From contig NZ_RSDW01000001.1 in the NCBI RefSeq assembly GCF_003945235.1, positions 1,620,001-1,652,000 of the forward strand: a stretch of 32,000 nt of DNA, read 5' to 3'. Below the pieces are notes generated by a model that was not told the origin of the DNA, did not search any database, and worked only from the letters and a program-made list of their open reading frames with translations. A program made the position numbers and the translations under genes. The stretch is from Edaphobacter aggregans. GTDB taxonomy: Bacteria > Acidobacteriota > Terriglobia > Terriglobales > Acidobacteriaceae. Below are positions 17,517 to 32,000 of this stretch, in pieces. Numbering within the stretch: the stretch's first letter is position 1; every line of letters starts with the position of its first letter.

Positions 17517-17594
17517 CTACTTCTATCTTCTCACCCGCACCCAACTCCGCGCCCCCCACCATTTCCCTGAACCCTGAAGGTCTAAACTATCCCA

Positions 17595-18290: not shown

Positions 18291-18423
18291 TTGCAACCGT
18301 TACACAAAGCTCACAGCCCAAGGCTCGCCGTTCTTTTCGTTTGAACCTGCAACTAAAACGCGTGTATAAGGGATACCGTCTAAATCCCAGCCATCTCGCG
18401 GGCCACATGACTAAGGAGCAACA

Positions 18424-19743
18424 ATGATCTCTCGACGTGAATTTCTAGACGGCCTCGCCGCAACTGCCGCAGGTGCAGCCATCAGTTCCACCGCCAAAAG
18501 CTACGCCCAGATTATCGGCGCCAACGACCGCGTCAACTTCGCCATCCTCGGCCTCAACGGACGCGGCTACGCCCACCTCTCCGCCCTCAAGAACAACGAT
18601 GCCTCCGCCCGCGTCACCCATGTCTGCGACGTCGACACCACCATCCTCAAGAAGTTCTCCGGCAGGGCCGAAAAAGAGCTAGGCTACGCCCCCACTGCCG
18701 ACCAGGACTACCGCAAGATCCTCGCCTCCAAAGACGTCGACGCAATCACCGTCGCCCTACCCGACCACTGGCATGCCCCCATGGCCATCCTCGGCCTCCA
18801 GTCCGGCAAGCACGTCTACGTCGAAAAGCCCTCCAGCCACAACCCCCGCGAGGGCGAACTCCTCATCGAAGCCCAGAAGAAATACGGCAAGCTAGTCCAG
18901 GTCGGCGACCAGCAACGCTCCTCCGACTACACCATCAAAATCATCCAGCAGGTACACGACGGTCTCATCGGCGAACCCTACTACGCCAAGGCCTGGTACG
19001 TGAACAAGCGCAAGTCCATGGGCTACGGTAAACCCGCCGCCGTACCCGCGACTCTCAACTGGGACCTCTGGCAAGGCCCCGCACCGCGCTCCGAGTACGT
19101 CGACAACGTCCACCCCTATAACTGGCACTGGCTCACCCGCTACGGCACCGGAGAAACCCTCAACAACGGCACCCACGAAGTCGACGTCTGCCGTTGGGCG
19201 CTGGGCGTCGAATATCCCACCCGCGTCACCGCCTCCGGTGGCCGCTACAACTTCAAGGACGACTGGCAGTTCTACGACACCCTCAACACCAGCTTCGAGT
19301 ACCCCGGCAAAATGATCAGTTGGGAAGGCCGCTGCTGCCAGGGCATGAAGATCTACGACCGCGAGCGCGGCTCCTCCATCCTCGGCACCAAAGGCTCCCT
19401 CCTCATCGACCGCGACGGCTACGAGCTCTACGATTGGAACGGCAAGAAGACCGACGAGTTCAAAACTGGCTCCCAGACCTCAAGCACCGACACCGTCGGA
19501 CGCGACTCCATGACCGACGCCCACTTCCTCAACTTCATCAACGGCATCCGCCGCGGCGAGAAGCTGAACTCGCCCATCCCCGTAGCCAACGTCAGCGTGA
19601 CGATGCTGCAGCTCTCCAACATCGCCTACTTCACCAACCACGAACTGACCATCGACACAGCAACCGGCCACGTCAAGAACGACCCCGAAGCCATGAAGCA
19701 CTGGGGCCGTAGCTACGAAAAGGGCTGGGAAGTCAAAGTCTAA
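18424..19743 (+). CDS. Gfo/Idh/MocA-family oxidoreductase with twin-arginine signal
   Basis: TAT motif SRREFL plus an AxA-like cleavage region. Rossmann segment VNFAILGLNGRGYAH, then EKP motif VYVEKP. AAGGAG lies 7 nt upstream of the ATG. Confidence 0.9.
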   Translation: MISRREFLDGLAATAAGAAISSTAKSYAQIIGANDRVNFAILGLNGRGYAHLSALKNNDASARVTHVCDVDTTILKKFSGRAEKELGYAPTADQDYRKILASKDVDAITVALPDHWHAPMAILGLQSGKHVYVEKPSSHNPREGELLIEAQKKYGKLVQVGDQQRSSDYTIKIIQQVHDGLIGEPYYAKAWYVNKRKSMGYGKPAAVPATLNWDLWQGPAPRSEYVDNVHPYNWHWLTRYGTGETLNNGTHEVDVCRWALGVEYPTRVTASGGRYNFKDDWQFYDTLNTSFEYPGKMISWEGRCCQGMKIYDRERGSSILGTKGSLLIDRDGYELYDWNGKKTDEFKTGSQTSSTDTVGRDSMTDAHFLNFINGIRRGEKLNSPIPVANVSVTMLQLSNIAYFTNHELTIDTATGHVKNDPEAMKHWGRSYEKGWEVKV

Positions 19744-19770
19744 CGAACATCCCGTACTCCAACTGAAAAG

Positions 19771-19796
19771 GGTCGTCCACAAGGGCGGCCTTTTTT
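19771..19796 (+). terminator. Rho-independent terminator after the oxidoreductase gene
   Basis: GGTCGTCC (19771-19778), loop ACAA, GGGCGGCC (19783-19790). This is an 8-bp stem with two G-U pairs, followed by TTTTTT (19791-19796), 28 nt after the stop codon. Confidence 0.7.
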
Positions 19797-19816
19797 CTTG
19801 CTCCTAACGGGTTTCT

Positions 19817-19962
19817 GCCGTTGCCGCTGCTGTTGCTGTTGTTTGTCCTTTTAGTTGTCATCCTTGAAGAGGATCCGCATCTGTCGTGGCCTGTCCTTCT
19901 GTCTCACTGCACGAAAATTTGTCATTTCGACCGAAGCTGCTCACGGTCTTATCGTGAGCAGC
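19817..19962. repeat. intergenic repeat block (triplet-periodic tract plus two TTGTCATYY hairpin units)
   Basis: Nine consecutive GYY triplets (19817-19843). TTGTCATCC (19855-19863) is followed by ATCCT/AGGAT. TTGTCATTT (19919-19927) is followed by the perfect 9-bp inverted repeat GCTGCTCAC/GTGAGCAGC (19936-19962). Same core as at 5496. Confidence 0.55.
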
Positions 19963-20037
19963 GCAGCGGAGAAACCTGCTTCTCTACCAACACAGCTTCC
20001 TGGCCAGCGAAATTTTTTCTCATCCACAGAGACCGTC

Positions 20038-21552
20038 CTACCAGGCCCCCTGCTTCCCGCCATACCACCACACCAACCCAACCGTAAGCGTGTCCTGATT
20101 CTGCGAAAGCACCCCAACCCTATTCGTCAAAAAGAACGGCACATTGGTCCAATCACGCCGATACTCCAGCCGCGACAGCAGCCCATCCGACACCTTGAAC
20201 TCATATGTCCCGGTAAACTCCTTCAGCGCCTGCGTCGTCCCGCTGAACAAACCACCGCGATCCGAAAAATACTCCGTCCGCCCCGCCAGCGCCATCCGCG
20301 GAGTCCACTGATACCGCGCATACCCCGCTCCCCCAATCACATGCTTCGGAGCCGATGACATCCCAGGCCCCGCATGCGCCCACACCCTCGAAACCTCATA
20401 ATCTCCCTCCAGCGCCAGCGTCACCTTCGGCGTCGCATTCCAGGTCGCATACGTATCGAAGATGTGCAGCTTGCCATCCGGCGCCGGAGTAATCGGAGCC
20501 AGACACAGCCCCGGCTGCACTGGAGTCCCGCAGCCCGACACCGGCGTTACATCCGGATTGTCCTGCCCAAGATAGTAGTTCACCGTCCACGAAATATTCT
20601 TCGTCGGCTGAGCAACAAACCCAAACAACTCATCCTTGAACGAGTTCGTAGGCTCCGACTGCTCCGTCCCATTCACAATCCAGTAATTCGCCGACAGCTT
20701 ATCGTTGATCTTGTAGTTAGCCCGAACCCCCATGTGGTAGAATGGCAGATAATTGAACCAGAACGACCGCGTGTAATTCATCTGGTCCTTCGTATAGTTC
20801 CCTTCAATCCCAATCGAACTCGCCCACTTCCCAAAATCCACCGTCAGTCCCTTGCTCAAAGGAAACACATACGTCCCATACGCCTGAAAGATGTTTCTAT
20901 AGACCTCGGGCCGAGGCTCATTCGCCGGATTGCCCTGTAACGTCTCCGTAGCCTGCCCAAACTGTAAATCCAGCCGAACCCCGTAACGCCGCCCCTCCTC
21001 GACACTGGGATCAAGCGCCAGAACAACGCCCGCCTGATTCAAACTGAACGCATTGCTCAGCACATCGTAGGCCCGCAGATATTGCACGCGCCCAATCGGA
21101 TGATTGAAGTCATACCCATAGTAGCCATCGAAGTAATAATTGAGGGTAGCTCCCCCCGGCAACTGAGCAGGCAAGGGAAGAGCCTGCGATCCAGGCGCGT
21201 TGGCAGCAGCCGTCGCACTCTGAGCATTCACCGCACCCACCGGCCCAGTCGCATCAGCCACAACCGGCATCGACGTAGCATCCGCTTCCGCCACCACCGC
21301 GCTCGACAAACTCGAAGAAGCCGCCGACACCACCGCCCCATCCGCAGCCGGAGCGTTCACCACCGTCTGCCGCTGATTCAACTGCTTCTCCAGCACAGCA
21401 ACACGCTGCGTCAAATCGCGCACCGTTTGCCGCAACTCCTCCACCTCAGCATCCTTCGAAGAAGCAGCCACTTGTGCCTCAACCCGGACACCAACCAGCA
21501 GCGACAACAAAACCAGAACAGCGCAAAACACAAATCGACTGATTGAACGCAT
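20038..21552 (-). CDS. outer-membrane beta-barrel porin with N-terminal coiled coil
   Basis: 504 aa. Signal peptide (VFCAVLVLLSLLVGVRVEAQ), heptad-like segment EELRQTVRDLTQRVAVLEKQL, then alternating aromatic/Gly-rich beta-strand pattern ending in an aromatic residue (..GKQGAW). It resembles OmpL-like 'bbp2' porins by recollection. Confidence 0.7.
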   Translation of the reverse strand: MRSISRFVFCAVLVLLSLLVGVRVEAQVAASSKDAEVEELRQTVRDLTQRVAVLEKQLNQRQTVVNAPAADGAVVSAASSSLSSAVVAEADATSMPVVADATGPVGAVNAQSATAAANAPGSQALPLPAQLPGGATLNYYFDGYYGYDFNHPIGRVQYLRAYDVLSNAFSLNQAGVVLALDPSVEEGRRYGVRLDLQFGQATETLQGNPANEPRPEVYRNIFQAYGTYVFPLSKGLTVDFGKWASSIGIEGNYTKDQMNYTRSFWFNYLPFYHMGVRANYKINDKLSANYWIVNGTEQSEPTNSFKDELFGFVAQPTKNISWTVNYYLGQDNPDVTPVSGCGTPVQPGLCLAPITPAPDGKLHIFDTYATWNATPKVTLALEGDYEVSRVWAHAGPGMSSAPKHVIGGAGYARYQWTPRMALAGRTEYFSDRGGLFSGTTQALKEFTGTYEFKVSDGLLSRLEYRRDWTNVPFFLTNRVGVLSQNQDTLTVGLVWWYGGKQGAW

Positions 21553-21771
21553 AAACCTACCTCTCTAAAGGTCTCCAGCAGAACACAAACCGCATAGATT
21601 TTTCATAAAGGCCCCATAACGAAACCCTAATCAACCCGTAAGAGAATCTCCGATAAATCTCCTGCCATCTTTAGTCTTTGCGCATGTTCGTCATCCATTA
21701 CGCCTTTTTTACGAGCGAAGTAGTGAAATATACATGGTCGCGCTGAACAACGCCGCCAGGAGAAAACTGAG

Positions 21772-21996
21772 GTGAACACCTTTCTTACCCGCAGACCGCT
21801 TCTCGTAAATGCCACACAATGCACTCAACCCACCACTATCTTCACTCACTGCGGCCATCGCAAAGCCTATCCCGGAGACTGGATCATCGAAGGCGAAAAT
21901 GACGATCGCTACATCGTCGACAACACCTTCTTCCAGCTCGCCTTCGCTCCCATCCCTTCGGAGTCCTCGAACGAAGGACGACACTACGGCTGCTAG
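21772..21996 (+). CDS. small hypothetical protein (PGDWII motif)
   Basis: 74 aa. GTG start with AGGAGA (21758-21763) 8 nt upstream. The C-terminal two-thirds has strong GC3 coding periodicity. The motif AYPGDWIIEGENDDRYIVDNTFF is reminiscent of small beta-rich proteins often seen in phage and other accessory contexts (weak recollection). Confidence 0.45.
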   Translation: MNTFLTRRPLLVNATQCTQPTTIFTHCGHRKAYPGDWIIEGENDDRYIVDNTFFQLAFAPIPSESSNEGRHYGC

Positions 21997-22175
21997 TTCC
22001 GCCACCCAACCTTGCTCATCACAACCCACCTGACCCACCGCACCTCAAGGGCCAGCAAAAGAAAAGCGCAGTGCATAGCATGCCTCTCGTATGCGAACCT
22101 CCAGAACCCCCGCTCTTATCTCTTACCTCCGAAGCAACTCCTAGCGAGCAGCAAGCGTGTAAGCAAAACCTATCG

Positions 22176-22697
22176 ATGCAGACACGCAAAGCACAGTCGC
22201 GAGACGCGAGAGCCATCCAGCAACTCATCGATAGCTTCACCCACGACGGCACACTGCTTCCACGTTCCTACTCGGAGATCTGCCAAAATATCGACACCTT
22301 CACGGTCGTCGAGTCAGAAGGCGGCCAGTTCATCGGCTGTGCAGCACTCCATGTCTACGGCCCTCACCTCGCTGAGGTGCGCTCCATCGTCGTCCGCCCA
22401 GATATCGCAGGACACGGAGCAGGCAGCCTCCTCGTCCAATCCCTCCTGCGTCAGGCGGAGCAGCGCGGCATCCAATGCGTCTGCCTCTTCACCCGCATTC
22501 CAACCTTCTTCGAACACTTCCGCTTCCAGATCACGCAACACCAGTTGTTCCGAGACAAAGCCCTGAAAGACTGCCAGCACTGTGCAAGACGCAACGCCTG
22601 CGACGAAACCGTGATGGCCCTCGGAAAGCTGCCCCCACTTCTTCCCGACTCCACACATCACCCGCAACATGGAGGATTCGTGCAGTTGCAACTTTGA
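22176..22697 (+). CDS. GNAT N-acetyltransferase, short ArgA/NAGS-like family
   Basis: MQTRKAQSRDARAIQQLID...LLPRSYSEICQNIDTFTVVE..IGCAALHVYGPHLAEVRSIVVRPD..GHGAGSLLV and a C-terminal KDCQHCARRNACDE motif fit the COG1246-type short amino-acid acetyltransferases. The track ORF starts at 22071 (GTG). I use the ATG at 22176, which aligns with the family N-terminus. Confidence 0.8.
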   Translation: MQTRKAQSRDARAIQQLIDSFTHDGTLLPRSYSEICQNIDTFTVVESEGGQFIGCAALHVYGPHLAEVRSIVVRPDIAGHGAGSLLVQSLLRQAEQRGIQCVCLFTRIPTFFEHFRFQITQHQLFRDKALKDCQHCARRNACDETVMALGKLPPLLPDSTHHPQHGGFVQLQL

Positions 22698-22854
22698 TTA
22701 CCCATCCTGCCGAGTGAATAGCAGACGCGGCCAAAACACTGCTACTGTCAATGACATTCGATGGTAGAGATGAAACGAATGCGGTCATCGCCATAAACGA
22801 ATGCAAGAGCTCACAAGTTTCTGCTGCACTTAGAACCTTGGAAAGGAAAGAAAG

Positions 22855-23031
22855 ATGGAATACGACAAATTCAAAAATGATGCTTCGGTCTACCAATCCA
22901 CTGCCCGCGCCGAAGACGGAATCCAGCCGCAAGGCCGATGGAGCGCCCTATGTGAAGGCGTACTCATTCCTATCGGCTCACTCTTCGCAGTCTTTCTGAC
23001 CATGCTCGGTCTCATGCTGATCGCTGACTAG
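22855..23031 (+). CDS. candidate 58-aa tail-anchored membrane protein (below the track's 60-aa cutoff)
   Basis: ATG preceded by GGAAAGGAAAGAAAG. Translation MEYDKFKNDASVYQSTARAEDGIQPQGRWSALCEGVLIPIGSLFAVFLTMLGLMLIAD has one C-terminal TM helix. Third positions are mostly C/G. Confidence 0.3.
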   Translation: MEYDKFKNDASVYQSTARAEDGIQPQGRWSALCEGVLIPIGSLFAVFLTMLGLMLIAD

Positions 23032-23074
23032 GCACCCGTTCTGGCACAAAATCGAGAATGGCGACTCCGGAGAT

Positions 23075-25192
23075 CTACCCTGCCACCACAATCTCCGAAA
23101 AATCCGCGATCCCTGAAAAATCCCCCAGCACCTTCTCCAGCAGCGCCAGTCGATTCGCCCGCACTGCCTCATCCGGAGCCATCACCATCACTGCATCGAA
23201 AAACGCATCCACCTGAGGCCGCAGCGTAGCAATCGCCTCCAGCGCCGCAGCATAACTCTTCTCCGCACGCAACGAAGAAACCCGCACAGCCAACTCCGTT
23301 GATCGCGCCGCCAGCGCCTTCTCCGTAGGCTCCGTCAACAAAACATCCTCCACACGAGCACCTGAAGCAATCCCCTTCTCTCCAGCCTGCGAAAGAATAT
23401 TCTTCATCCGCTTGAACGCCGCCGAGACCGCAGCAAAATCGCCCGTATCTCCGGAGGAAGCCCCGCGCACCGCAGTTACAGCTTCCGCCCGAGCGACCGC
23501 ATCCCGAACATCCTCCGCCCCCGCAGCGAGCACGGCCTTCACCACGTCATAAGCCTGCCCCTTCACCTCGCGCAGATAGAACTCCAACCGTTCCTGCAGG
23601 AATCCAAGCACCTTCGCCGCCAGCGCTTCATTCTGCCCGCAGGCCGCACCTGCAACCTCACGCAGCGTCAGCGGCAACGCAACCCCGCTCTCCGCCAGAA
23701 TCTTCACAATCCCATTCGCCGCCCGCCGCAGCGCAAACGGATCCTTCGATCCCGTAGGCTCCAGCCCGAGCCCAAACATCCCGGCAATCGTATCCGCCTT
23801 GTCGGCAATCGCCAGCAACGCACCCTCAACCGTCCGCGGAACCGAGTCGTCCATCGACTCCGGCTTGTACTGGTCATAGATCGCATCGCTCACAGCAGCC
23901 GAATATCCCTGAGCCCGCGCATACAACCCACCCACAACTCCCTGCAACTCCGTAAACTCCTTCACCAACTCCGTCGTCAGATCGGTCTTCGCCAGCACTA
24001 CAGCCTCATCCAAAGCCACCGGATTCAAATCACATCCACGAGCCAGCACCAACCCCGCCAACGCCGAAGCCAACTTCCGCACCCGCGCCGACTTCGCCGC
24101 ATAACTCCCAAGCTCTTTCTGAAACGTAACGTTCTTCAGCAACTCAACGCGTTCCTTCAAACACACCCGCTGATCGAACTCCCAGAAGAATCGCGCATCA
24201 TTAAACCTCGCCCGCAGCACCCGCTCATTCCCATGCCGAATCACCGCCTCACCCGCAGCATCAGTCTCCGTATTCAACACCGCCAGAAAATGCGGAGCCA
24301 GCTTCCCATCCTTATCCTCCACAGCAAAGTAGCTCTGATGATCCCGCATCACTGTCACCAGAACCTCCTCCGGCAGCGCCAGAAACTCCGGCTCAAATCC
24401 ACCCAGAATCACCGAGGGCCACTCCGTCAGATGAGTCAGCTTATCCACCAACCCATGATCCTCACGCCACCGCAACCCTTCCACCGTCCGCGTTACCTTA
24501 TCCAGAGCCTTCCGAATCCTCTGCCGCCGCACCTCCACACCGGCAAGCACAAAGCCCGCAAGCAAAGCATCCTCATACTCACTCGGAGCCTTCACGGCAA
24601 TCGCCCCATCCCCAAACAAAACCCGATGCCCATACGTCACCGCACCGGCCTCATACCCACCAAAACTCACCGGAACCGTCGCCTCACCCAGCAACGCGAC
24701 CATCCACCGCACCGGCCTCACAAACCGCTCCGGCTTGCCCGCCCGCCAGTACATATTCTTCGCCCAATAAATTCCCGCCAGTTCCTTCGGCAACTCCGCC
24801 GCAATCACCTCCGCAGCCCCCCGCCCAACCTTCACTACCGTCGCCGCAAGATACTCACCTTTCGCATTCGTAACCGTCTTCAGCTCCTCAACAGCCACGC
24901 CAGCCTTCTTCGCAAATGCCAACGCCGCCGGAGTAGCCACCCCATCCTTGTACGCGACCTTCACCGAAGGCCCCACCATCTCCTCCGCAACATCCTCCTG
25001 TCGCTCCGCAACATCTTTCACCCAAACCGCAAGCCGCCGCGGAGTAGCAAAGCTCTTGCTCTCCACCCCCGACGCCACAAGCCGCTCCCGCTCCAGCATC
25101 TTCACCACACGCTGCTCAAGCTCAGCCTGTGCCCCGGCGATCATCCGCGCCGGAACCTCCTCCAACCCAATCTCAAACAAAAACTCCGCCAT
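23075..25192 (-). CDS. glyS: glycine--tRNA ligase beta subunit
   Basis: MAEFLFEIGLEEVPARM matches the GlyS N-terminus (..LvEIGtEElP). Length is about 705 aa and it sits downstream of glyQ. The track ORF begins upstream at a TTG (25219); I prefer the ATG at 25192. Confidence 0.95.
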   Translation of the reverse strand: MAEFLFEIGLEEVPARMIAGAQAELEQRVVKMLERERLVASGVESKSFATPRRLAVWVKDVAERQEDVAEEMVGPSVKVAYKDGVATPAALAFAKKAGVAVEELKTVTNAKGEYLAATVVKVGRGAAEVIAAELPKELAGIYWAKNMYWRAGKPERFVRPVRWMVALLGEATVPVSFGGYEAGAVTYGHRVLFGDGAIAVKAPSEYEDALLAGFVLAGVEVRRQRIRKALDKVTRTVEGLRWREDHGLVDKLTHLTEWPSVILGGFEPEFLALPEEVLVTVMRDHQSYFAVEDKDGKLAPHFLAVLNTETDAAGEAVIRHGNERVLRARFNDARFFWEFDQRVCLKERVELLKNVTFQKELGSYAAKSARVRKLASALAGLVLARGCDLNPVALDEAVVLAKTDLTTELVKEFTELQGVVGGLYARAQGYSAAVSDAIYDQYKPESMDDSVPRTVEGALLAIADKADTIAGMFGLGLEPTGSKDPFALRRAANGIVKILAESGVALPLTLREVAGAACGQNEALAAKVLGFLQERLEFYLREVKGQAYDVVKAVLAAGAEDVRDAVARAEAVTAVRGASSGDTGDFAAVSAAFKRMKNILSQAGEKGIASGARVEDVLLTEPTEKALAARSTELAVRVSSLRAEKSYAAALEAIATLRPQVDAFFDAVMVMAPDEAVRANRLALLEKVLGDFSGIADFSEIVVAG

Positions 25193-25259
25193 CGCTCTCA
25201 ACTCAAATCCCGCCATCAAGGCGCATCTCGAAATCGATCAAACACAAATGTTCGGGTGC

Positions 25260-25289
25260 CCCATCCTTCGCGCTTTTGCGAAGGGTGGG
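25260..25289. repeat. hairpin element in the glyQ-glyS spacer
   Basis: CCCATCCTTCGC (25260-25271), loop GCTTTT, GCGAAGGGTGGG (25278-25289). This is a 12-bp stem with one T-G position (it would be C-A in the minus-strand mRNA). GCGAAGGGTGGG-type hairpins look like a dispersed acidobacterial repeat, by recollection only. Confidence 0.5.
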
Positions 25290-25300
25290 AGAGTAGCCAC

Positions 25301-26278
25301 TCAACCCGCCACAACCTCAGCATCCAGCGCCGCCAAAGCCACACCCTGAGCCGCATAAGCTTTAGCGACACCCACCACCAGCGTCCGAATCCGCGCCATC
25401 ACACCCACACGCTCAGTCACCGAAATCGCCCCGCGAGCATCCAGCAAATTAAAAACATGCGAGCACTTCAGCGCCAGCTCATAAGCCCCCAGCACCGGAA
25501 ACCGCTTCAGCATCAGAGCATCCATCCCCTCAAAACCCTTGGCCTTCTCCAGCAGCGCCAGACACTCCGCCTCATACAACTCCAAGTGTTTCCATAAAGA
25601 TCCCACATCCGCATAGTCGAAGCTGTAGGCCGAAAACTGCTCCTCCTCGGCCAGCCGCATCTCGCCATACGTCACCTTGCGGCCCGTATCGCGTTCCACC
25701 GCCCACACAATGTCATAGATCGAATCCACATCCTGCAGAAACCCGGCAATCCGCTCCAACCCATACGTAATCTCGCCGCAGATCGGATCCAGATCCATCC
25801 CGCCACACTGCTGAAAGTATGTGAACTGAGTAATCTCCAACCCATCAAGCATCACCTGCCATCCAACGCCCCACGCGCCACCGACAGGCCACTCCCAGTT
25901 GTCCTCTTCGAACTTGATGTCATGCTCTTTCAGATCAATCCCAATCGCCATCAGCGATTCCAGATAAAGCTCCTGAATCCTCACCGGTGGCGGCTTCAAA
26001 ATCACCTGTAACTGCGTATGCCGAAACAGCCGATTCGGATTCTCCCCATACCGTCCATCCGCCGGCCGCCGCGAAGGCTGCGCATAAGCAATCCTCACCG
26101 GCTTAGGCCCAAGCACCCTGAGAAACGTATCTGGAGACATAGTCCCCGCGCCCACCTCAACGTCATAAGGCTGCTGCAAAACACACCCCTGCTCTGCCCA
26201 GAACCGCTGCAGCCTGAACAAAAGCTCCTGAAACGTAAGCGCACGTTGCTCCCCGACCCTTGAAACCGATTCAGTCAT
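25301..26278 (-). CDS. glyQ: glycine--tRNA ligase alpha subunit
   Basis: [44 protein letters not shown]...[20 protein letters not shown] is near-identical in pattern to the GlyQ core. I use the ATG at 26278 rather than the TTG at 26341 that overlaps the upstream stop. Confidence 0.95.
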
Positions 26279-26337
26279 ATCTCTCTCATCAATATCCGGC
26301 AATCCTTTGATTCTACCGTCTCGAAGCCCCGCCCTCC

Positions 26338-27420
26338 TCAATTCGGCTTTGTAAGTACGTGCCGGTTGCCAATCTCTGGGGCGAGCGACGGATCACCAGG
26401 CACCGTCGTCGGATCGGACTGCACCTTCGCATCCGGAACCGGAACTGAAATTCCCGCCGGGCGGATGAAGAAGTGATTGCCCTTGTCAATCTTTACCGCC
26501 ATCCCATATTCGCCCGCAGAAAACTTTGCCGGGCGCGGAAACTCTACGATGTACCGCTCCCGCACCATCGTCATAAATCGATTCAAAGTCAATTCAAGTC
26601 CACTTTCCTTCGTCATTTGCACAATGCCCCCGCTCAATTCGCACAAAGATTGGAACGGATTCTCACGGTTCGCTCTCTCCAGAAAAACCGAACCGGCACC
26701 CCACGGAACAGGCACTACTCCAAAAACCGCTATCCCCGACTCCTGATCGTAAAGTCTTAGCGCATTCCACGGATTCACACTCCCCTTATCATTCCCATCC
26801 GTCACCGCGAGAATCACCCTCCGCCCAGGAAGCCTGTACAACTGCTCGCTGATGACAGTCATCGCATCCCAAAGATGAATCGGATTCCGACACGGCGCCG
26901 CACCCTTGTCTTTTACGCGATTCGTCCACGACTCTAACGCTTTGTCGACCCCTTCCTTCAGTTGCAAACGGTCGGCTGGAACACCACTTGCAGTTCGATT
27001 CAACTCACAATCCAACGCATAAATAGAAACATGATCCTTCGCATGAAGAGACAGCGGTGCAAGATTCGTGATCGCATCGCCAACCTTCGGCATCAACTCT
27101 GCTGCACCGGTTACATCCAGCAGAATGGACAGCGAAATCGGATCGTCATCCTCAAGACGAACATGCGACGCATGAAACCACGGTCCCTCATCAAAGTTCA
27201 CCCAAAATCTGTTCGCCGCAATTGGCTTCGCAATCCGCTCCCGATTCGGCCCGAGCACCAACACGGGTATCTGGATCGTATTCGCATAAACATGCAGCGT
27301 CGTCACGCCCCCATCCTGCATCGTCGGTTGATCCTGCGCTGCGAGCGTCCCTCCACTCCAAGCCCACAACCCACTCAGCAGAATCCCGGCACTTCCCGCC
27401 ATCAGCCGATGACTCACCAT
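26338..27420 (-). CDS. secreted VWA-domain protein (VWFA-related acidobacterial domain type)
   Basis: 360 aa. Signal peptide ending TLAAQ. An N-terminal beta region ([17 protein letters not shown]..) is followed by a VWA-like core [12 protein letters not shown]...HVSIYALD...[13 protein letters not shown]. The MIDAS position reads DVTGA, not DxSxS. Confidence 0.75.
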
Positions 27421-27431
27421 CTCCCCGAAAG

Positions 27432-27588
27432 TATGCCAGAGAAACGCGCGGAGGTCTCTCTATCGCGCTAGCCCTATCCGTCCCCGCCGATCAAGGCCGT
27501 TCCCTGGATCCTCGCCACCACCTACGTCGTAGTCGTCTTTTCCATCGTCATCCAGGGCGGCTCGATGGACCTCTTCCTCCGCCGCTTC
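27432..27588 (+). pseudogene. 3'-terminal remnant of a CPA1-type Na+/H+ antiporter gene (frameshifted, 5' part missing)
   Basis: Frame A (27432-27494) reads YARETRGGLSIALALSVPADQ, matching the conserved (W)aGmRGavSlAlALslP motif. Frame B (27496-27588) reads AVPWILATTYVVVVFSIVIQGGSMDLFLRRF, matching the last TM helix (..tf.VVlfSllvQG.t...LlrrL). Frame B has a TAG at 27469-27471, so a 1-nt indel near 27490-27500 is needed to join the two frames. No upstream part exists, because the VWA gene start abuts at 27420. Confidence 0.6.
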
Positions 27589-27774
27589 ACCCCAAAACTA
27601 GGTACTTATCCTGAGCACAAGCCGTGTGCCCCATCCAAAGCGCGCCTGCTCGAGCGAAGGTTGGGGTCTCAAAGGAAGTTGAAGGAAGACGAGTCAGAAG
27701 TTGTTCGAAATTTTCATTCATCCAAATGGAACCACCAGCATCCTATTATCCAGTCAGGAGATTCGAACCGAAAA

Positions 27775-28545
27775 ATGAAACCTACTGGAAACACCATCCT
27801 CATCACCGGTGGCGGCACCGGAATCGGTCGCGGCCTCGCAGAAGCCTTCCACAAACTCGGCAATAAAGTCATCATCGCCGGCCGCCGCAAGCAGGTCCTC
27901 TACGAGACCACCGCCGCCAACCCCGGCATGGCTTCCACCGTTCTCAACATCGAAGACCCCGCCGACATCCGCAAGGTCGCCGCGCAACTAGCGAAGGACC
28001 ACCCCGCCCTCAACGTCGTCATCCACAACGCTGGCATCATGCGCCCCGAAAACCTTCTGGCTCAACCGGAAACCGCCGACGCCGAAGCCATCGTCACCAC
28101 CAACCTCCTAGGCCCCATCCGCCTCACCGCGGCCCTGCTCCCCCAACTCCAGAAGCAACCCCACGCCACCATCGTGACCGTCACTTCCGGCCTGGCCTTC
28201 GTTCCCCTGGCCATCACCCCCACTTACTGCGCCACAAAGGCCGCCATTCACTCCTGGAGCCAGTCCCTCCGCTACCAGCTCAAATCCACCAACGTCGAAG
28301 TCGTCGAACTCGCCCCGCCGTACGTCCAGACTGAACTCATGGGCAGCGCCCAGGCCGCCGACCCCCGTGCCATGCCTCTCAACGACTACATCAACGAGGT
28401 CCTCGAAATAATCAAGACCCAGCCCAAAGCCACCGAAATCCTCGTCGAACGCGTCAAACCTCTCCGCTCTGCCGAACACAGCGGTACAGAAAGATACGCG
28501 GCATTCTTTAATCAATTCAACGACGCCATGAACCACCCCGATTAA
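27775..28545 (+). CDS. short-chain dehydrogenase/reductase (classical SDR, DltE/COG3967-like)
   Basis: ILITGGGTGIGRGLA (TGxxxGxG), NAGIM, and catalytic YCATKAAIHSW (YxxxK). The track ORF begins at 27565, but that part is the antiporter remnant. I use the ATG at 27775. Confidence 0.9.
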   Translation: MKPTGNTILITGGGTGIGRGLAEAFHKLGNKVIIAGRRKQVLYETTAANPGMASTVLNIEDPADIRKVAAQLAKDHPALNVVIHNAGIMRPENLLAQPETADAEAIVTTNLLGPIRLTAALLPQLQKQPHATIVTVTSGLAFVPLAITPTYCATKAAIHSWSQSLRYQLKSTNVEVVELAPPYVQTELMGSAQAADPRAMPLNDYINEVLEIIKTQPKATEILVERVKPLRSAEHSGTERYAAFFNQFNDAMNHPD

Positions 28546-28591
28546 ACTCGTCTCCACGGAGTCGCTACGACAGATTCAAGATTTTTGCAAT

Positions 28592-28623
28592 CAGAGGCCT
28601 CAAGCTAAGCCTTGAGGTCTCTG
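28592..28623. other. 13-bp-stem hairpin in the convergent spacer, located at the skew switch
   Basis: CAGAGGCCTCAAG (28592-28604), loop CTAAGC, CTTGAGGTCTCTG (28611-28623), with one G-T position. Neither strand has a flanking U-tract, so it is not a canonical intrinsic terminator. Confidence 0.5.
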
Positions 28624-28718
28624 TAAGGCAAAGCAAGAGCACCAAGGATCTGCGGCGTGACCACCAGAAGAGGAAACGCAACGGCAACCATGAAGAGCTC
28701 GTGGGGCTAGTTATGAGT

Positions 28719-29018
28719 TCATAAAGGCCGGACCAGGGGAAGGTCGTCTTCGTTGTTGTTCTGGTGGAGCTTGATCTTGATGTTGTCCCAGACGTTGTCG
28801 CTTGGCTCGTAGACGGGTTCGAAGAGACTCTTGGCGTGCTCAGCAATGGTCTCGAGATCGCGGACGAGCGCGGCACAGTCGGGATTTTTCTGGAGGAAGC
28901 TCTGGAGTCGTGGGTCCGTGCTGACGCGTCCGTTGGTCGCAGCAAAGAGATCTGGCAGGTATTGTTCAAATTCTGCAATGGTCATAGTTTCTGGATCTGG
29001 GAAGATAAAGTCGGTCAT
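28719..29018 (-). CDS. anti-sigma-factor-like protein (N-terminal anti-sigma domain only, no TM segment)
   Basis: 99 aa. The ATG overlaps the sigma gene stop (ATGA, 29015-29018). The pattern FEQYLPDL....[24 protein letters not shown] resembles the anti-sigma domain with a degenerate H-x3-C-x2-C (one Cys only), followed by the common P..VW..I motif. Confidence 0.5.
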
Positions 29019-29677
29019 CGCGCCGCCTCCTGGAGGCCGGTCTGCTGGGTGAGCTGTTCGGGTTGGCGAAGGAGCTCGCGGAGCTTGAGCCGGGCCTTAT
29101 GGAGTTGGGATTTACTGTTGCCTGTTGAACATTCGAGCATCGTGGCAATCTCATTATGCTCGAAGCCTTCTACGTCATGAAGGACAAAGACCATGCGGTA
29201 GCCGGGAGGAAGCGAGGCGACGGCGCGTTCGAGGGCGACGCGGTCGACTGAGCCTGAGAGTTGCGGATCGCGGCTGCCGAAGTCGCGCTTGGGTGCATCT
29301 TCTTCCGATGGATTGATGGTCTCCTCGAGCGAGACGAGGTTGAGGCCTTTTTTGCGGAGGTGCATGAGGACGAGGTTCACCGTGAGACGGTGGAGCCAGG
29401 TCGAGAAGGCGGACTCTCCGCGGAAGCTGCCGATTTTGCGGAAGAGGTGCAGGAATGCCTCCTGGGTCATGTCCTCGGCTTCGGAGACATTGCCCAGCAT
29501 CCGAAGGCAGAGTGTATAGACGCGGCGTTTATGCAGGGCATAAAGCTTGGAGAACGCTTCCGCGTCTCCCGCTTTTGCGGCTTCGATGGCTTCCGCCTCA
29601 CCAGCGATGGGCGGATTACGTTTAAAGAGGCCTGGAACGGGCTTGGGCTCTGTCATCTGTAGGCCTTCTGAACTCAT
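29015..29677 (-). CDS. ECF-type RNA polymerase sigma-70 family factor
   Basis: Region 2: [61 protein letters not shown]. Region 4: [46 protein letters not shown]. An alternative ATG at 29656 has GAAGG upstream. Confidence 0.9.
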
Positions 29678-29682
29678 AGGCT

Positions 29683-29709
29683 GGACTCCGTGGTTTTGTT
29701 GTCGTTCAC
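29683..29709 (-). promoter_or_regulatory. candidate ECF-type (autoregulatory) promoter
   Basis: The minus strand reads GTGAAC (29709-29704), 17 nt, then GTCC (29686-29683), resembling GGAAC-N16/17-CGTC-type ECF promoters. It would place the TSS near the first ATG, favouring the second ATG (29656). Pattern match only. Confidence 0.25.
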
Positions 29710-29827
29710 CGCTTCGTTTTGCCTATCTGAAGCCTACCGTAAACGGGGGAGAGCTGCTTTGTATAAAAGACACAAATTACTTTGAGTCGTGTTGAGCGCA
29801 AAAGGTTGTGTCGCCGGTTAAGCCGAC

Positions 29828-29836
29828 TGTGGATAA
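29828..29836 (-). promoter_or_regulatory. perfect consensus DnaA box (TTATCCACA on the minus strand)
   Basis: The + strand reads TGTGGATAA at 29828-29836, in the 177-bp thiF/ECF-sigma spacer. An AT-rich 28-mer (29758-29785, 6 G/C of 28) lies nearby. A single box could occur by chance. Confidence 0.3.
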
Positions 29837-29854
29837 ACCTATGAAAATGAAAGG

Positions 29855-30952
29855 TCAGGAGCCTATAAACCGGGCGTAAAGAGAGCGGGCAATGGTTACG
29901 TCGGTGGTGCCCTGGATAATGGCGCGGCCATCCGCAAAGAGAGTGAGGGTGTGTGGCGGGCGGTCGAAGCGGAGGAGGAGTTCGTTGAAACGGACCTGAC
30001 CGTGGGGTGCCAGACGGTCGCGCATCGCGGCGAAGTCGACGGGGCGGTGATGCTCATGGATCTGGACGGAATTTCGACCGCAGAGTGTGATGTGCGGGCG
30101 GCCTTCGCCGGCGAGATGCGTGAAGACTCGTTGGGCGCAGACGGTGCATGCGGGGTTGGGTTTGGAGGTGCTGATCTCGCTACGGTCGTTGGTCCAGAGG
30201 TCGAAGGAGAGGAGGGTGCGGCGGATGAGGTGGGGCTGGCCGGTGAGCAGTTTGAGGGCTTCGGTGACCTGGATGGAGGCTGCGAGGTTGACAGCGGTGG
30301 AGAGGATGCCGGAGGTGTCGCAGGTCTCGACGGGGCCGGAGGGGGGCTTGGGGAAGAGGCAGGCAAGACAGGAAGTAGGAAGTAGGGAGTAGGAAGTAGA
30401 AGGCGGAGAGGTCGGGTCAGGTTTGGGGAGGATGGTCATGGTGGCGGCGTAGGCACCGATGGCGGCGGCGTAGATCCAGGGCTTGGATTGCTGGACGGCG
30501 TAGTCGTTGATGAGGTAGCGGGTTTCGAAGTTATCGGTAGCGTCGAGGATAATGTGGGCAGCGGCGAGGAGTTCGTGGATGTTGGCGGGGACGAGGTCGG
30601 TGATCTGAGGATGGACGGTGATGGTGGAGTTGAAGAGGGAAATCTTGCGGCGAGCGGCTTCGGCCTTGGGGAGGGATTGGATGGCGTCGGACTCGTCGAA
30701 GAGGATTTGACGCTGGAGGTTGGAGGATTCGACGAAGTCGCGATCGATAAGGGTGAGAGTGCCAATGCCGGCGCGGGCGAGCAGAGAGGCTGCTGCTGCT
30801 CCGGTGGCTCCGCAGCCGACGACGGCGATGTGGGAGGTGGCGAGCATCTGCTGTCCGGCGGGGCCGATTCCGGGAAAGAGGATCTGACGGGAGTAGCGGT
30901 CGTCGGAGGTAATTTCAGAGGCGGCGGTAGGTAGTTGTGAAGACTGAGGCAT
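29855..30952 (-). CDS. ThiF/MoeB/HesA-family E1-like adenylyltransferase with C-terminal extension
   Basis: RYSRQILFPGIG..GQQML, nucleotide-binding VVGCGATGAAAASLLARAGIG.LTLIDRDFVESSNLQRQ, Zn-type cysteine pairs (CLAC, CTVC), and a ~90-aa C-terminal domain ending LFADGRAIIQGTTDVTIARSLYARFIG. Confidence 0.85.
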   Translation of the reverse strand: MPQSSQLPTAASEITSDDRYSRQILFPGIGPAGQQMLATSHIAVVGCGATGAAAASLLARAGIGTLTLIDRDFVESSNLQRQILFDESDAIQSLPKAEAARRKISLFNSTITVHPQITDLVPANIHELLAAAHIILDATDNFETRYLINDYAVQQSKPWIYAAAIGAYAATMTILPKPDPTSPPSTSYSLLPTSCLACLFPKPPSGPVETCDTSGILSTAVNLAASIQVTEALKLLTGQPHLIRRTLLSFDLWTNDRSEISTSKPNPACTVCAQRVFTHLAGEGRPHITLCGRNSVQIHEHHRPVDFAAMRDRLAPHGQVRFNELLLRFDRPPHTLTLFADGRAIIQGTTDVTIARSLYARFIGS

Positions 30953-31179
30953 GGCGTGGCTTTGTGCGCCCTAAGACGCTGCTCTTTCGTAGTATAGGGG
31001 GTATAGCAAAAGCATGGTTGCGCGGGAGCTGGCGGACTCCGCAGAGAATTCCGGCATCCAAGCTTGCAGAGCTTGCTGGCGCAAGTTCAGCGGTTCGCCG
31101 CGTGGGCGGAGGTACGCTTACGTGATGCTGGATAGGGATGCGTGGCTAGGACGGCGTGATTTTCAACAGGAACAGATGG

Positions 31180-32000
31180 GTGTTTTTTTTGGGTCATGGA
31201 CGGAGAGATCGAGCGCCAGCGTCACGCAGCAGGGTGGGGCTGGGCCTTGTCTTTTTGTTGATGACTGGTTTCGCCCATGGACAGGTGGTGAGTCAGGAGA
31301 TGCAGGCGACTGGCTCCGCTGTGGAGGTAGAACAGGCAGCTCCGCTGGTACCTCCTGCGGCTGATCCTCAAGCTCCTACGGCTTTGTCGCCGCAACAACA
31401 GAATGAGGGATTGCCAGCTAGTCGACCGGAGTTGGCGACGACTGTGTGGCAATGGAAGGGCATCCGGGTCGACAAGATCGAGTTTGAGGGAGTGATGTTC
31501 GATGCCGATGATCCGCTTCTGAAAGAGTTAGACCAAAGAGCGGGAGAACCGCTCGATCCGATGAAGGTGCGGGCAAGCACGCGGAGACTGTTTGCCAGTG
31601 GGCGCTATCGCGACATTGAGGTGCGTGGGGTGAGACAGGGCGATGGGATGACGTTGATCTTTGCTGGGGTCCCGCAGTTCTTTGTGGGGCGAGTGACGAT
31701 TGCGGGGGTAAGGGACGATCAGCTGACATCGCTGCTGAAATACGGAACCCAACTCTCGCCGGGAACGCCGCTGTCGCAGGGGGCGATACCGGCTGGGTCC
31801 ACGGGAATCAAACAGCTTCTGGAACTGCAGGGACGACATGAGCCCAAGGTCTCGGCGGCCACGACGGCAGATAAAGAGAATCACCAGATGAATGTGGCGT
31901 ACACGGTCGATATTGGGCCACAGGCGCGGGTGGGACAGGTGACGATTGTGGGAGCGGACCCTGGGCTCACGGTGGAGGAGTTTCGCAAAATAGGCAGACT
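31180..32000 (+). CDS. bamA: outer membrane protein assembly factor BamA, N-terminal part (runs off the right edge)
   Basis: Open frame from 31150 to the window end; absent from the ORF track because it has no stop. Signal-like RRDRAPASRSRVGLGLVFLLMTGFAHG/QV. POTRA-like repeats follow: IRVDKIEFEGV..D..L...L....GEPLD...V....RRLFASGRYRDIEV and VGRVTIAGV.., ARVGQVTIVGADPGLTVEEFRK. I propose the GTG at 31180 as start (AGGAA 7 nt upstream), but the start is uncertain. Confidence 0.7.
   Translation, partial: MFFLGHGRRDRAPASRSRVGLGLVFLLMTGFAHGQVVSQEMQATGSAVEVEQAAPLVPPAADPQAPTALSPQQQNEGLPASRPELATTVWQWKGIRVDKIEFEGVMFDADDPLLKELDQRAGEPLDPMKVRASTRRLFASGRYRDIEVRGVRQGDGMTLIFAGVPQFFVGRVTIAGVRDDQLTSLLKYGTQLSPGTPLSQGAIPAGSTGIKQLLELQGRHEPKVSAATTADKENHQMNVAYTVDIGPQARVGQVTIVGADPGLTVEEFRKIGR

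What the first reader, a model, noticed from the sequence alone, without database searches (positions are those of the whole stretch)
28546..28718. Sharp, coding-strand-independent GC/AT-skew polarity switch (origin-type sign change or rearrangement breakpoint)
From position 1 to about 28.55 kb the + strand is C>G and A>T, whichever strand the genes are on. From about 28.7 kb to the end it is G>C and T>A, again regardless of gene strand. My hand counts of G/C on single 60-nt lines are as follows. Left side: 18601 (+ gene) 11/27, 24001 (- gene) 8/27, 28141 (+ gene) 10/29, 28501 8/20. Transition: 28561 14/14. Right side: 28681 21/12, 29041 (- gene) 25/13, 30481 (- gene) 24/8, 31621 (+ gene) 26/11. 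As a result, synonymous codon endings depend on replication strand, not on gene. NNC dominates in the RNase T2, Gfo, SDR and thiF genes, and NNG in priA, glyS and bamA. Leading strands are generally G+T-rich, so a negative-to-positive switch is the signature of a replication origin, and this sign is unchanged if the window is reverse-complemented. Several points argue against a simple origin call. There is no dnaA or dnaN here. The two flanking genes converge on the point. The 173-bp spacer has no DnaA-box cluster. Two gene remnants lie within 1.2 kb. An inversion, rearrangement or assembly junction is therefore an equally live explanation.
Basis: partly seen in the sequence, partly recalled or inferred. 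Interest (0 to 1): 0.75.

Follow-up and report, generated by a model that had tools for sequence, protein, structure and literature searches.

The report
Edge of a 27-kb chromosomal inversion
The abrupt flip in G-versus-C strand bias is real, but it marks one end of a roughly 27-kb piece of an Edaphobacter chromosome that was turned around, not the replication origin; this is an ordinary kind of rearrangement, unusually easy to see here because the genome's strand bias is so strong.

Summary
GC skew on the + strand is about -0.31 over 1-28,545 and +0.28 over 28,719-32,000. The change point is at 28,558 (support 28,550-28,667) and holds whichever strand the genes are on (third-codon-position skew -0.4 to -0.8 on the left, +0.35 to +0.74 on the right).

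The origin reading is refuted and the inversion reading is supported. In relatives the gene order is aroK/AI-2E, then antisigma-ECF-thiF-bamA-tamB...recO-MGMT, then SDR-glyQ-glyS...priA. This run is colinear with one skew sign. In the window's species (NCBI-labelled Edaphobacter aggregans, 6.15-Mb contig), the roughly 26.7-kb block from antisigma to MGMT/abhydrolase is flipped.

The window holds the junction between the SDR stop and the antisigma stop. Conspecific metagenome contigs carry the reciprocal junction (abhydrolase start against aroK start) about 26.7 kb to the right, with the opposite skew change (+ to -). DNA homology to non-inverted relatives stops exactly at the two stop codons that flank the 173-bp spacer.

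The junction occurs in at least five independent assemblies, so it is not a chimera. There is no DnaA-box cluster, dnaA or dnaN. No inverted repeat or IS was found at the junctions, so the recombination mechanism is unknown, as is the true origin's position.

The parts
1..28545 (.). Left flank ('G block'), + strand C>G. It holds priA, 2x DUF3147, ppa, RNase T2(+), UDG, rpoZ, gmk, yicC, an ABC exporter, rapZ, hpf, rpoN, lptB, an LptC/LptA-like gene, o17595(+), Gfo(+), a BBP2 porin, GNAT(+), glyS, glyQ, o26338 and SDR(+). Its order and polarity match those in relatives.
   Evidence: Pfam hits. Skew. Synteny with L002, L083, L085, L139/L140 and L141.
27775..28545 (+). SDR oxidoreductase, the last gene of the un-inverted flank. 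Its stop codon is where homology to the ancestral W|G arrangement ends.
   Evidence: Pfam adh_short, E=5e-40. The ortholog is 89% identical in protein and 85% in DNA, and sits in L139/L140 between MGMT and the o430-glyQ genes. Homology ends at window 28,545 = L140 16,330.
28546..28718 (.). Inversion junction: a 173-bp spacer between the convergent SDR and anti-sigma stop codons. The skew change point is at 28,558 (support 28,550-28,667). GC content is about 50%. It has no DnaA box.
   Evidence: No blastn homology to the intergenic DNA of either ancestral breakpoint in L138 or L140.
28592..28623 (.). A 13-bp-stem hairpin (CAGAGGCCTCAAG-CTAAGC-CTTGAGGTCTCTG) just downstream of SDR. It is probably a terminator-like stem-loop. 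It is retained in strain L087 with changed stem and loop bases.
   Evidence: Read from the sequence and aligned to the L087 spacer. The terminator scan did not flag it because it has no T run.
28628..28704 (.). A strain-specific stretch of about 77 bp. In 97-98% identical strains (L087/L088) it is replaced by 6 bp. It weakly resembles the GCAAAGG-rich DNA that follows the anti-sigma gene in the non-inverted relative L138.
28719..32000 (.). The first 3.3 kb of the inverted block of about 26.7 kb ('T-W'), + strand G>C. It holds the anti-sigma-like gene 28719-29018(-), ECF sigma 29015-29677(-), ThiF/MoeB-type adenylyltransferase 29855-30952(-) and the 5' end of bamA, about 31153-32000(+). In conspecific contigs the block continues with surA-like, tamB, BON, ubiA, pheA(PDT), lon, DUF488, thiS, moaE, VWA, inositol-P, Fer4, DinB, recO, an ArsP-like permease, MGMT(-) and abhydrolase(-).
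   Evidence: Pfam hits. L133/L134. L135/L136/L137. Skew. Third-position skew of the abhydrolase is +0.38, the same sign as the block.
27487..27668 (+). Non-coding filler upstream of SDR. It holds a short ORF-like stretch (27487-27600, a possible gene remnant, unverified) and a REP-like element, 'REP-A' (27626-27668).
   Evidence: REP-A copies also lie in both ancestral breakpoint intergenic regions in relatives (L005 4596-4636; L140 16271-16314).
29828..29836 (-). The single perfect DnaA-box 9-mer TTATCCACA, in the thiF-ECF intergenic region. It is conserved at the same place in relatives but is isolated. It is not part of the junction.
   Evidence: L003 11111, L006 11204.

Best explanation
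The skew flip at 28.55-28.67 kb is the left breakpoint of a single chromosomal inversion of about 26.7 kb.

The ancestral order is preserved in relatives: ...S15 peptidase - zfCDGSH - AI-2E - aroK | antisigma - ECF - thiF - bamA - surA - tamB - ... - lon - thiS - moaE - VWA - recO - ArsP - MGMT | SDR - o26338 - glyQ - glyS - ... - rpoN - ... - priA. All of this lies on one replication arm with one skew sign. In the lineage of the window, the segment between the two bars was flipped. This joined the antisigma stop to the SDR stop (the window's convergent 173-bp spacer). It also joined the start of the block's last gene to the aroK start (a divergent 500-bp spacer, about 26.7 kb to the right of the window's junction).

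This clade has accumulated a very strong replication-strand mutational bias, mostly at synonymous third positions. The flipped block therefore carries the opposite bias to its new neighbours. That gives an origin-type switch (negative to positive) at one end and a terminus-type switch (positive to negative) at the other.

Shown here: the two synteny breakpoints, their orientation logic, both skew switches, and the fact that the inverted state is derived. Inferred: the block, rather than the rest of the chromosome, is now replicated against its skew, which would place bamA, tamB, lon and recO head-on to the fork. Also inferred is that the event is young relative to the time the skew needs to re-equilibrate, because |skew| in the block is undiminished. 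The event is older than the 2-3% divergence among strains that share it. The recombination mechanism is not established, because no inverted repeats or IS were found at the junctions.
For: 1. The ancestral link from T to Y. The run thiF-ECF-antisigma-aroK-AI-2E lies on one strand with uniform skew in at least 50 of 80 Acidobacteriaceae loci. The closest non-inverted relative, L138 (TamB 92%), has S15'-zfCDGSH'-AI-2E'-aroK'-antisigma'-ECF'-thiF'-bamA with skew +0.2 to +0.4 throughout.

2. The ancestral link from W to G. The run recO-ArsP-MGMT(-)-SDR(-)-o430-glyQ-glyS is contiguous in L139/L140, the same contig as L138. Related W-G arrangements occur in L002, L083 and L085. In L016's contig, thiF and glyQ lie 28 kb apart on the same side of that contig's switch. 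In L006's contig, thiF is at 360.5 kb and priA at 410.8 kb, and all sampled DNA has + skew.

3. The window's species. On contigs 97-98% identical to the window, the block runs antisigma...recO-ArsP-MGMT-abhydrolase and then meets aroK(+)-AI-2E(+)-zfCDGSH-S15. Skew stays positive for about 26.4 kb and flips to -0.2 to -0.33 at L135 position 17,200, exactly at the abhydrolase|aroK spacer. Third-position skew is +0.38 for the abhydrolase and -0.41 for aroK.

4. Homology ends at the junction. Homology to ancestral-type relatives ends at window 28,545 (SDR stop, against L140) and resumes at 28,721 (antisigma stop, against L138; 28,715-28,726 against L006, L003 and L005).

5. The topology fits one inversion. 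Stop meets stop at one junction and start meets start at the other.

6. The junction is real. The window's proteins are exact matches to an NCBI Edaphobacter aggregans genome on a single 6,152,256-bp contig. The same junction is present in L087, L088, L090, L091 and one further JGI contig from different samples.

7. There are no oriC features.
Against: The reciprocal junction was seen in conspecific strains that are 2-3% divergent, not in the window's own genome, which the tools withheld.

The junctions are not perfectly clean. The 173-bp spacer has no detectable homology to either ancestral intergenic region. About 1.4 kb at the other junction (L135 16,050-17,428) has no counterpart in L138/L140; it consists mostly of the abhydrolase gene, which is absent from the closest non-inverted relative, plus a short duplicated MGMT 5' fragment. 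Extra insertion or deletion events must therefore be assumed.

No inverted repeats or IS were found to explain the recombination.

Which partner is now mis-oriented relative to the fork was not measured. The polarised-substitution test was uninformative.
Confidence: 0.9

Rival explanations
1. The spacer is, or immediately adjoins, the chromosomal replication origin. On this reading the skew minimum marks where the two replication forks diverge.
For: The polarity is of the origin type, negative to positive. Most genes on the left lie on the - strand, which would be the leading strand if forks left from here. Several relatives (L006, L008, L016) also show origin-type switches within 0.1-7 kb of the thiF block.
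Against: A reciprocal switch from positive to negative lies only about 26.7 kb away in conspecific contigs. The orthologous antisigma|aroK and MGMT|SDR intervals in relatives have uniform skew, so no origin existed at either ancestral breakpoint, and an inversion cannot create one. The spacer is 173 bp at 50% GC, has no DnaA box, and varies by a 77-bp indel between strains. There is no dnaA or dnaN in the 32-kb window or in the roughly 27 kb examined to its right.
Confidence: 0.03
2. The junction is an assembly artefact: a chimeric join or a mis-oriented contig.
For: Skew jumps are a recognised signature of misassembly (PMC7717575). Two metagenome contigs end near the junctions: L089's contig starts inside the antisigma gene, and L087's contig and L137 both end about 300 bp past aroK.
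Against: The same antisigma|SDR junction is present in a single-contig isolate genome and in at least five independent assemblies from different samples and assemblers. One contig, Ga0209060_10000507, carries both junctions.
Confidence: 0.02
3. The arrangement arose by several rearrangements rather than one inversion. Examples are translocation of the glyQ-priA block, or nested or sequential inversions around a nearby origin.
For: Both junctions carry extra, non-homologous DNA: the 173-bp spacer, and at the other junction about 1.4 kb without a counterpart in L138/L140, mostly the abhydrolase gene, plus a duplicated MGMT 5' fragment. The neighbourhood is rearrangement-prone in relatives. An older polarity boundary lies 2 kb beyond the far junction, and the third-position skew of the S15 peptidase gene there differs between lineages.
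Against: One inversion between two intergenic regions explains both new adjacencies, both gene orientations and both skew switches. The content and order inside the block are unchanged relative to L138/L140.
Confidence: 0.05

Closest known systems
Local GC-skew reversals caused by chromosomal inversions (the class that skew-based quality-control tools such as SkewIT detect; PMC7717575)
   Same: There is an abrupt reversal of skew that is independent of coding strand and bounded by two switches of opposite sign. Both switches coincide with synteny breakpoints, and the gene content inside the block is reversed relative to outgroups.
   Different: The contrast is unusually high (third-position skew from about -0.7 to +0.7), so the breakpoint can be placed to about 100 bp. 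No flanking inverted repeats, rRNA operons or IS elements were found, although these usually mediate such inversions. The event is fixed in a species-level cluster and is not an assembly error.
Bacterial oriC (the skew minimum with DnaA boxes and an AT-rich unwinding element, usually next to dnaA/dnaN)
   Same: The sign of the skew change, negative to positive, and its sharpness.
   Different: There is no DnaA-box cluster, no AT-rich unwinding element and no dnaA or dnaN. The switch is not conserved at the orthologous site in relatives. A compensating opposite switch lies 26.7 kb away.
Origin- or terminus-centred symmetric inversions ('X-alignments'; from established knowledge, not tested here)
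   Same: It is a large inversion of core genes that became fixed in a lineage.
   Different: Symmetric inversions keep each gene's leading or lagging status and leave no skew discontinuity. This one lies within a single replication arm and does leave a discontinuity.

Membership tests
Replication origin (oriC) | Cluster of DnaA boxes (TTATCCACA-like) in the non-coding region at the switch | tested here: not met
   There is no box in 28,546-28,718. In 32 kb there are 7 matches at one mismatch or fewer, against 3.9 expected, and at most 2 fall in any 500 nt.
Replication origin (oriC) | AT-rich DNA-unwinding element in or next to the switch | tested here: not met
   The spacer is about 50% GC, against 58% for the window. 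It contains a GC-rich hairpin and no AT tract.
Replication origin (oriC) | Linkage to dnaA, dnaN or other origin-proximal genes | tested here: not met
   Pfam annotation of the window and of about 27 kb to the right found none.
Replication origin (oriC) | Unique global minimum of cumulative skew, with the opposite switch about half a replicon away | tested here: not met
   In conspecific contigs the opposite switch lies about 26.7 kb away. The whole replicon could not be read.
Replication origin (oriC) | The switch is conserved at the orthologous position in relatives | tested here: not met
   Skew runs uniformly through antisigma|aroK in L138 and most of the 80 loci, and through MGMT|SDR in L139/L140.
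Replication origin (oriC) | Marker-frequency peak or initiation activity | not testable with these tools
   This needs read depth from growing cells or an autonomous-replication assay.
Chromosomal inversion breakpoint | The skew switch coincides with a break in synteny relative to outgroups | tested here: met
   Homology ends at 28,545 (against L140) and resumes at 28,715-28,726 (against L138, L006, L003 and L005).
Chromosomal inversion breakpoint | A reciprocal breakpoint with the opposite-sign switch and complementary new adjacency | tested here: met
   The abhydrolase(-)|aroK(+) junction lies at L135 positions 17,171-17,667, and skew flips from positive to negative at about 17,200. This was seen in strains 97-98% identical to the window, not in the window's own genome.
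Chromosomal inversion breakpoint | The segment's internal order is conserved but its orientation is reversed relative to both flanks | tested here: met
   The order from the T-W genes through ArsP and MGMT is the same in L133-L137 as in L138-L140, and the flanks Y and G are swapped.
Chromosomal inversion breakpoint | The junction is supported by independent data and is not an assembly artefact | tested here: met
   An isolate genome plus at least five metagenome contigs carry it.
Chromosomal inversion breakpoint | Inverted repeats, IS or recombinase sites at both ends (defines the homologous or site-specific subclass only) | tested here: not met
   No shared sequence longer than 14 nt was found between the two junctions. 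There are no notable repeats in 27.3-29.1 kb. REP-A copies in the ancestral intergenic regions of relatives are in direct relative orientation.

The most novel reading that the evidence does not exclude
The inversion may sit within about 2-3 kb of the true chromosomal origin, and that origin may not be linked to dnaA. An older origin-type polarity boundary lies just beyond the far junction, between AI-2E or rsmE and zfCDGSH-S15 peptidase. It is sharp in L016. Three other lineages (L006, L008, L016) have independent origin-type switches within 0.1-7 kb of the same thiF block, each with a different partner. If so, the DNA downstream of thiF would be an origin-proximal rearrangement hotspot in strongly skewed Acidobacteriaceae, and the window's switch would be the origin's own skew boundary displaced by about 29 kb.
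Probability: 0.15. Interest if true: 0.45.

Novelty: new member of a known kind. Interest (0 to 1): 0.2.

Why it matters
The main value is as a caution and a calibration. In genomes with extreme strand bias, an origin-type skew switch in a short window is not enough to call oriC, because a 27-kb inversion gives the same local picture. The case is also a clean natural experiment. About 20 core genes, including bamA, tamB, lon and recO, have apparently been switched between co-directional and head-on orientation. Their skew is so far un-ameliorated, and the event is bracketed in time: absent at about 88% DNA identity and shared at 97-98%. It could therefore be used to measure how fast strand bias re-equilibrates, and whether head-on orientation is tolerated in Acidobacteriaceae. 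It does not reveal a new kind of element.

Tried and rejected
- Source genome look-ups. The only positional hint is that the anti-sigma gene is locus tag EDE15_1366 on a 6,152,256-bp contig.
- DnaA-box scans of the window and of the relatives' switch regions found no cluster.
The junction was instead reached by walking along strain contigs with TamB and VWA.
- The search for inverted repeats or IS at the two junctions found nothing. A REP-mediated origin was considered, but the REP-A copies are directly oriented and absent from the present junctions.
- Polarised window-versus-L087 substitutions were used to try to read the present fork direction. The block gave G>A 25 and C>T 7; the flank gave C>T 28 and G>A 7. 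These ratios only mirror third-position base content and are prone to mis-polarisation, so the test is inconclusive.
- A horizontally acquired island was rejected, because the block consists of syntenic core genes.
- A terminus or dif site was rejected, because the polarity is wrong.
- My reading of the 27,487-27,600 stretch as the C-terminal remnant of a cation antiporter has no Pfam support and no homolog in relatives.

Full report
**1. The observation**

The window is 58% GC with an exceptionally strong strand bias. In 1-kb windows, + strand GC skew is -0.15 to -0.47 from 1 to about 28.5 kb and +0.17 to +0.42 from there to the end. At 200-nt resolution the zero crossing lies between 28,500 and 28,700. 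The cumulative G-C minimum is at 28,557. A two-segment likelihood change point is at 28,558, with support 28,550-28,667. Its log-likelihood ratio is 326, against at most 37 in block shuffles.

The bias does not depend on which strand a gene is on. Twenty-one genes were scored on the left, 17 on the - strand and 4 on the + strand. All have + strand third-position GC skew of -0.40 to -0.79. The three - strand genes scored on the right have +0.35 to +0.74. AT skew changes in the stated direction but weakly and not uniformly.

**2. What is around it**

The left side holds these genes: priA, two DUF3147 genes, ppa, an RNase T2 (+), UDG, rpoZ, gmk, yicC, an ABC exporter, rapZ, hpf, rpoN, lptB, an LptC/LptA-like gene, o17595 (+), a Gfo oxidoreductase (+), a BBP2 porin, a GNAT (+), glyS, glyQ, o26338 and the SDR (+). 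The right side holds the anti-sigma-like gene, an ECF sigma factor, a ThiF/MoeB-type adenylyltransferase (all on the - strand) and the 5' end of bamA (+). There is no dnaA or dnaN.

There are seven DnaA-box matches at one mismatch or fewer in 32 kb, against 3.9 expected, and none lies in the spacer. The one perfect box (29,828-29,836) is isolated in the thiF-ECF intergenic region. The spacer is about 50% GC and contains a GC-rich hairpin at 28,592-28,623.

**3. Whose genome**

GlyQ and ThiF homologs place the window in Acidobacteriaceae, near Edaphobacter. The window's PriA, SDR, anti-sigma and ThiF proteins are exact matches to an NCBI genome labelled Edaphobacter aggregans. That genome is a single 6,152,256-bp contig, and the anti-sigma gene is locus tag EDE15_1366. 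The DNA of that record could not be fetched.

**4. Relatives lack a switch at this position**

Eighty thiF loci were retrieved from GTDB species representatives. About 75 of them keep thiF-ECF-antisigma together. In nearly all strongly skewed genomes the skew continues unchanged for at least 9 kb beyond the anti-sigma gene. The conserved continuation lies on the same strand and is aroK, an AI-2E transporter, a small conserved gene and rsmE, found in 29-55 of the loci. DNA homology between the window and its closest relatives (L006 91%, L003 84%, L005 83%) stops at 28,715-28,726, the anti-sigma stop codon. Nothing from the window's left side appears downstream of the anti-sigma gene in any relative.

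**5. The two sides were once colinear, 28 kb apart**

In L016's contig, thiF (1,453,498-1,454,595) and glyQ (about 1,482,524) lie on the same replication arm with the same skew sign. In L006's contig, thiF is at 360.5 kb and priA at 410.8 kb, and all sampled DNA has positive skew.

The closest non-inverted relative has TamB 92% and VWA 92% identical to the window's species. It is represented by contig_125223 (180,633 bp) and a second contig from another sample. It reads: S15 peptidase' - zfCDGSH' - AI-2E' - aroK' - antisigma' - ECF' - thiF' - bamA - surA - tamB - BON - ubiA - pheA - lon - DUF488 - thiS - moaE - VWA - inositol-P - Fer4 - DinB - recO - ArsP-like - MGMT(-) - SDR(-) - o430 - glyQ - glyS. 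From zfCDGSH onward its skew is +0.15 to +0.45 throughout. The SDR there is the ortholog of the window's SDR (89% protein identity). Homology to the window ends exactly at the SDR stop (window 28,545 = L140 16,330).

**6. The reciprocal junction exists**

The window's ECF sigma protein is found unchanged on six metagenome contigs, and four of the five with readable DNA carry the same antisigma|SDR...glyQ junction at 97-98% DNA identity to the window.

I walked rightward along two 68-kb contigs using TamB and then VWA as handles. The block continues exactly as in the non-inverted relative as far as recO, ArsP-like and MGMT(-). An abhydrolase(-) follows. The sequence then meets aroK(+), AI-2E(+), zfCDGSH(+) and S15 peptidase(+).

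Skew stays at +0.1 to +0.5 for about 26.4 kb. It flips to -0.2 to -0.33 at L135 position 17,200, in the divergent abhydrolase|aroK spacer. Third-position skew is +0.38 for the abhydrolase, -0.41 for aroK and -0.43 for AI-2E. One contig, Ga0209060_10000507, contains both junctions.

This is the signature of one inversion between two intergenic regions: antisigma-stop/aroK-start and SDR-stop/upstream-gene-start. Stop now faces stop in the window, and start faces start at the other end. The flipped segment measures about 26.7 kb. The inverted state is derived. It is confined to the window's species-level cluster, while every outgroup that was informative for a given adjacency has the colinear form.

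**7. Consequences and mechanism**

The skew is a historical record of mutational asymmetry, concentrated at synonymous sites. Flipping the block leaves that record pointing the wrong way, hence an origin-type switch at one end and a terminus-type switch at the other.

Neither ancestral breakpoint had a switch, and the block has uniform skew. The origin therefore lies outside the block, and the block is presumably now replicated against its skew. That would put bamA, surA, tamB, lon and recO head-on to the fork and thiF, ECF and antisigma co-directional. This last step is inferred, not measured.

|Skew| in the block equals that of the same genes in the non-inverted relative, so amelioration has barely begun. 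The event predates the 2-3% divergence among strains that share it and postdates the split from the roughly 88% identical relative.

I found no inverted repeat, IS or recombinase site at the junctions. REP-like elements do occupy both ancestral intergenic regions in relatives, but in direct relative orientation. The recombination route is therefore unknown, and illegitimate recombination is the default guess.

The junctions also carry extra DNA. One item is the 173-bp spacer, which varies by a 77-bp indel between strains. The other is about 1.4 kb at the far junction with no counterpart in L138/L140, made up mostly of the abhydrolase gene, plus a short duplicated fragment of the MGMT 5' end. 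Small additional events must be assumed.

**8. Rivals**

An origin at the spacer is contradicted by sections 4-6 and by the lack of any oriC feature. An assembly chimera is excluded by the isolate genome plus five or more independent assemblies. A multi-step history cannot be fully excluded because the junctions are not clean, but one inversion suffices. An acquired island is excluded, because the block is syntenic core DNA.

**9. What remains open**

The true origin was not located. About 2 kb beyond the far junction there is an older polarity boundary, between AI-2E or rsmE and zfCDGSH-S15. It is sharp in L016. The S15 gene's third-position skew differs between lineages: -0.26, +0.15 and +0.43. 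L006 and L008 have their own sharp origin-type switches within a few kb of thiF, with unrelated partner genes. This could mean a rearrangement hotspot next to an origin that is not linked to dnaA, or simply several independent inversions. I could not test this. A polarised-substitution test of the present fork direction was uninformative.

**10. Verdict**

This is a real, sharply resolved feature with an ordinary explanation: a breakpoint of a 27-kb intra-arm inversion. Skew jumps of this kind are a known signature of inversions or misassemblies (PMC7717575).

The unusual aspect is the strength of the strand bias in this clade, which makes the breakpoint readable to about 100 bp. A 2015 survey placed the mean strand-composition bias of Acidobacteria (0.009) well below the phyla it ranked highest (0.100 and 0.071) (PMC4613354).

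Noticed in passing
whole window; loci L003-L082: Strand bias is extreme in this clade. Third-position GC skew is +/-0.4 to 0.8, and 1-kb skew is 0.2-0.45 in most Edaphobacter, Tunturiibacter and Granulicella loci. Sister Acidobacteriaceae are near zero over the same genes, for example L028, L038, L047 (E. aggregans DSM 19364), L052 (E. modestus), L066 and L067. A 2015 survey gave Acidobacteria a low mean bias (0.009, PMC4613354). This suggests a lineage-specific change in replication or repair asymmetry.
   Followed up: partly
L006 ~14,800; L008 ~11,160; L016 18,251; L003 ~14,900; L135 ~19,300: Several relatives have their own origin-type skew switches 0.1-7 kb downstream of thiF, each with different genes on the far side (S9 and S15 peptidases, alaS, prolyl oligopeptidase). 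The S15 peptidase gene next to AI-2E or rsmE has lineage-dependent third-position skew: -0.26, +0.15 and +0.43. This may be a rearrangement hotspot or may reflect proximity to the real origin.
   Followed up: partly
window 29828-29836 (-); L003 11111; L006 11204; L016 11140; L004 11122: A single perfect, or one-mismatch, DnaA-box 9-mer TTATCCACA is conserved in the thiF-ECF sigma intergenic region across relatives. It is isolated, so it is not an oriC. It might be a regulatory site.
   Followed up: no
window 27626-27668 (REP-A); window 19914-19996 (REP-B): There are two families of short intergenic repeats. REP-A (~45 nt, GGGTGCCCCATCC...GGTTGGGG) recurs in L005, L138 and L140. REP-B (~85 nt, ...TGTCATTTCGACCGAAGCTGCTCACG...GTGAGCAGCGCAGCGGAGAAACC...) recurs downstream of the anti-sigma gene in L003 (two copies), L005, L006 and L138. 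Both ancestral inversion breakpoints lie in intergenic regions that carry REP-A in relatives.
   Followed up: partly
window 28628-28704: This stretch of about 77 bp in the junction spacer is replaced by 6 bp in strains that are otherwise 97-98% identical (L087, L088). The junction spacer is therefore still changing.
   Followed up: yes
window 20038-25192: The porin-GNAT-glyS stretch is only about 90% identical to strain L087, with 52 gap openings, while the flanking DNA is 97-98% identical. This is probably a recombination import or a fast-evolving region.
   Followed up: no
window 27487-27600: A short ORF-like stretch upstream of SDR (...AVPWILATTYVVVVFSIVIQGGSMDLFLRRF...) looks like the C-terminal end of a membrane transporter. 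It has no Pfam hit, is frameshifted in L087, and is absent from the non-inverted relatives L139/L140.
   Followed up: partly
L089 record position 1; L136 and L137 contig ends: Metagenome contigs break near both junctions. One starts inside the anti-sigma gene. Two from different samples end about 300 bp past aroK. This could reflect repeats or strain heterogeneity at the junctions. No contig with the ancestral joins was seen at 97% identity or above.
   Followed up: no
window vs L047: The source genome is labelled Edaphobacter aggregans. Its ThiF is only 79% identical to the best-segment match in the E. aggregans DSM 19364 locus, which has weak skew. The label probably covers two different species.
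   Followed up: no
window 18424-21552: The Gfo oxidoreductase and BBP2 porin lie between o17595 and GNAT in this species. They are absent from the same interval in L085 and L083, so this is a lineage-specific insertion inside the otherwise conserved glyS...lptC stretch.
   Followed up: no
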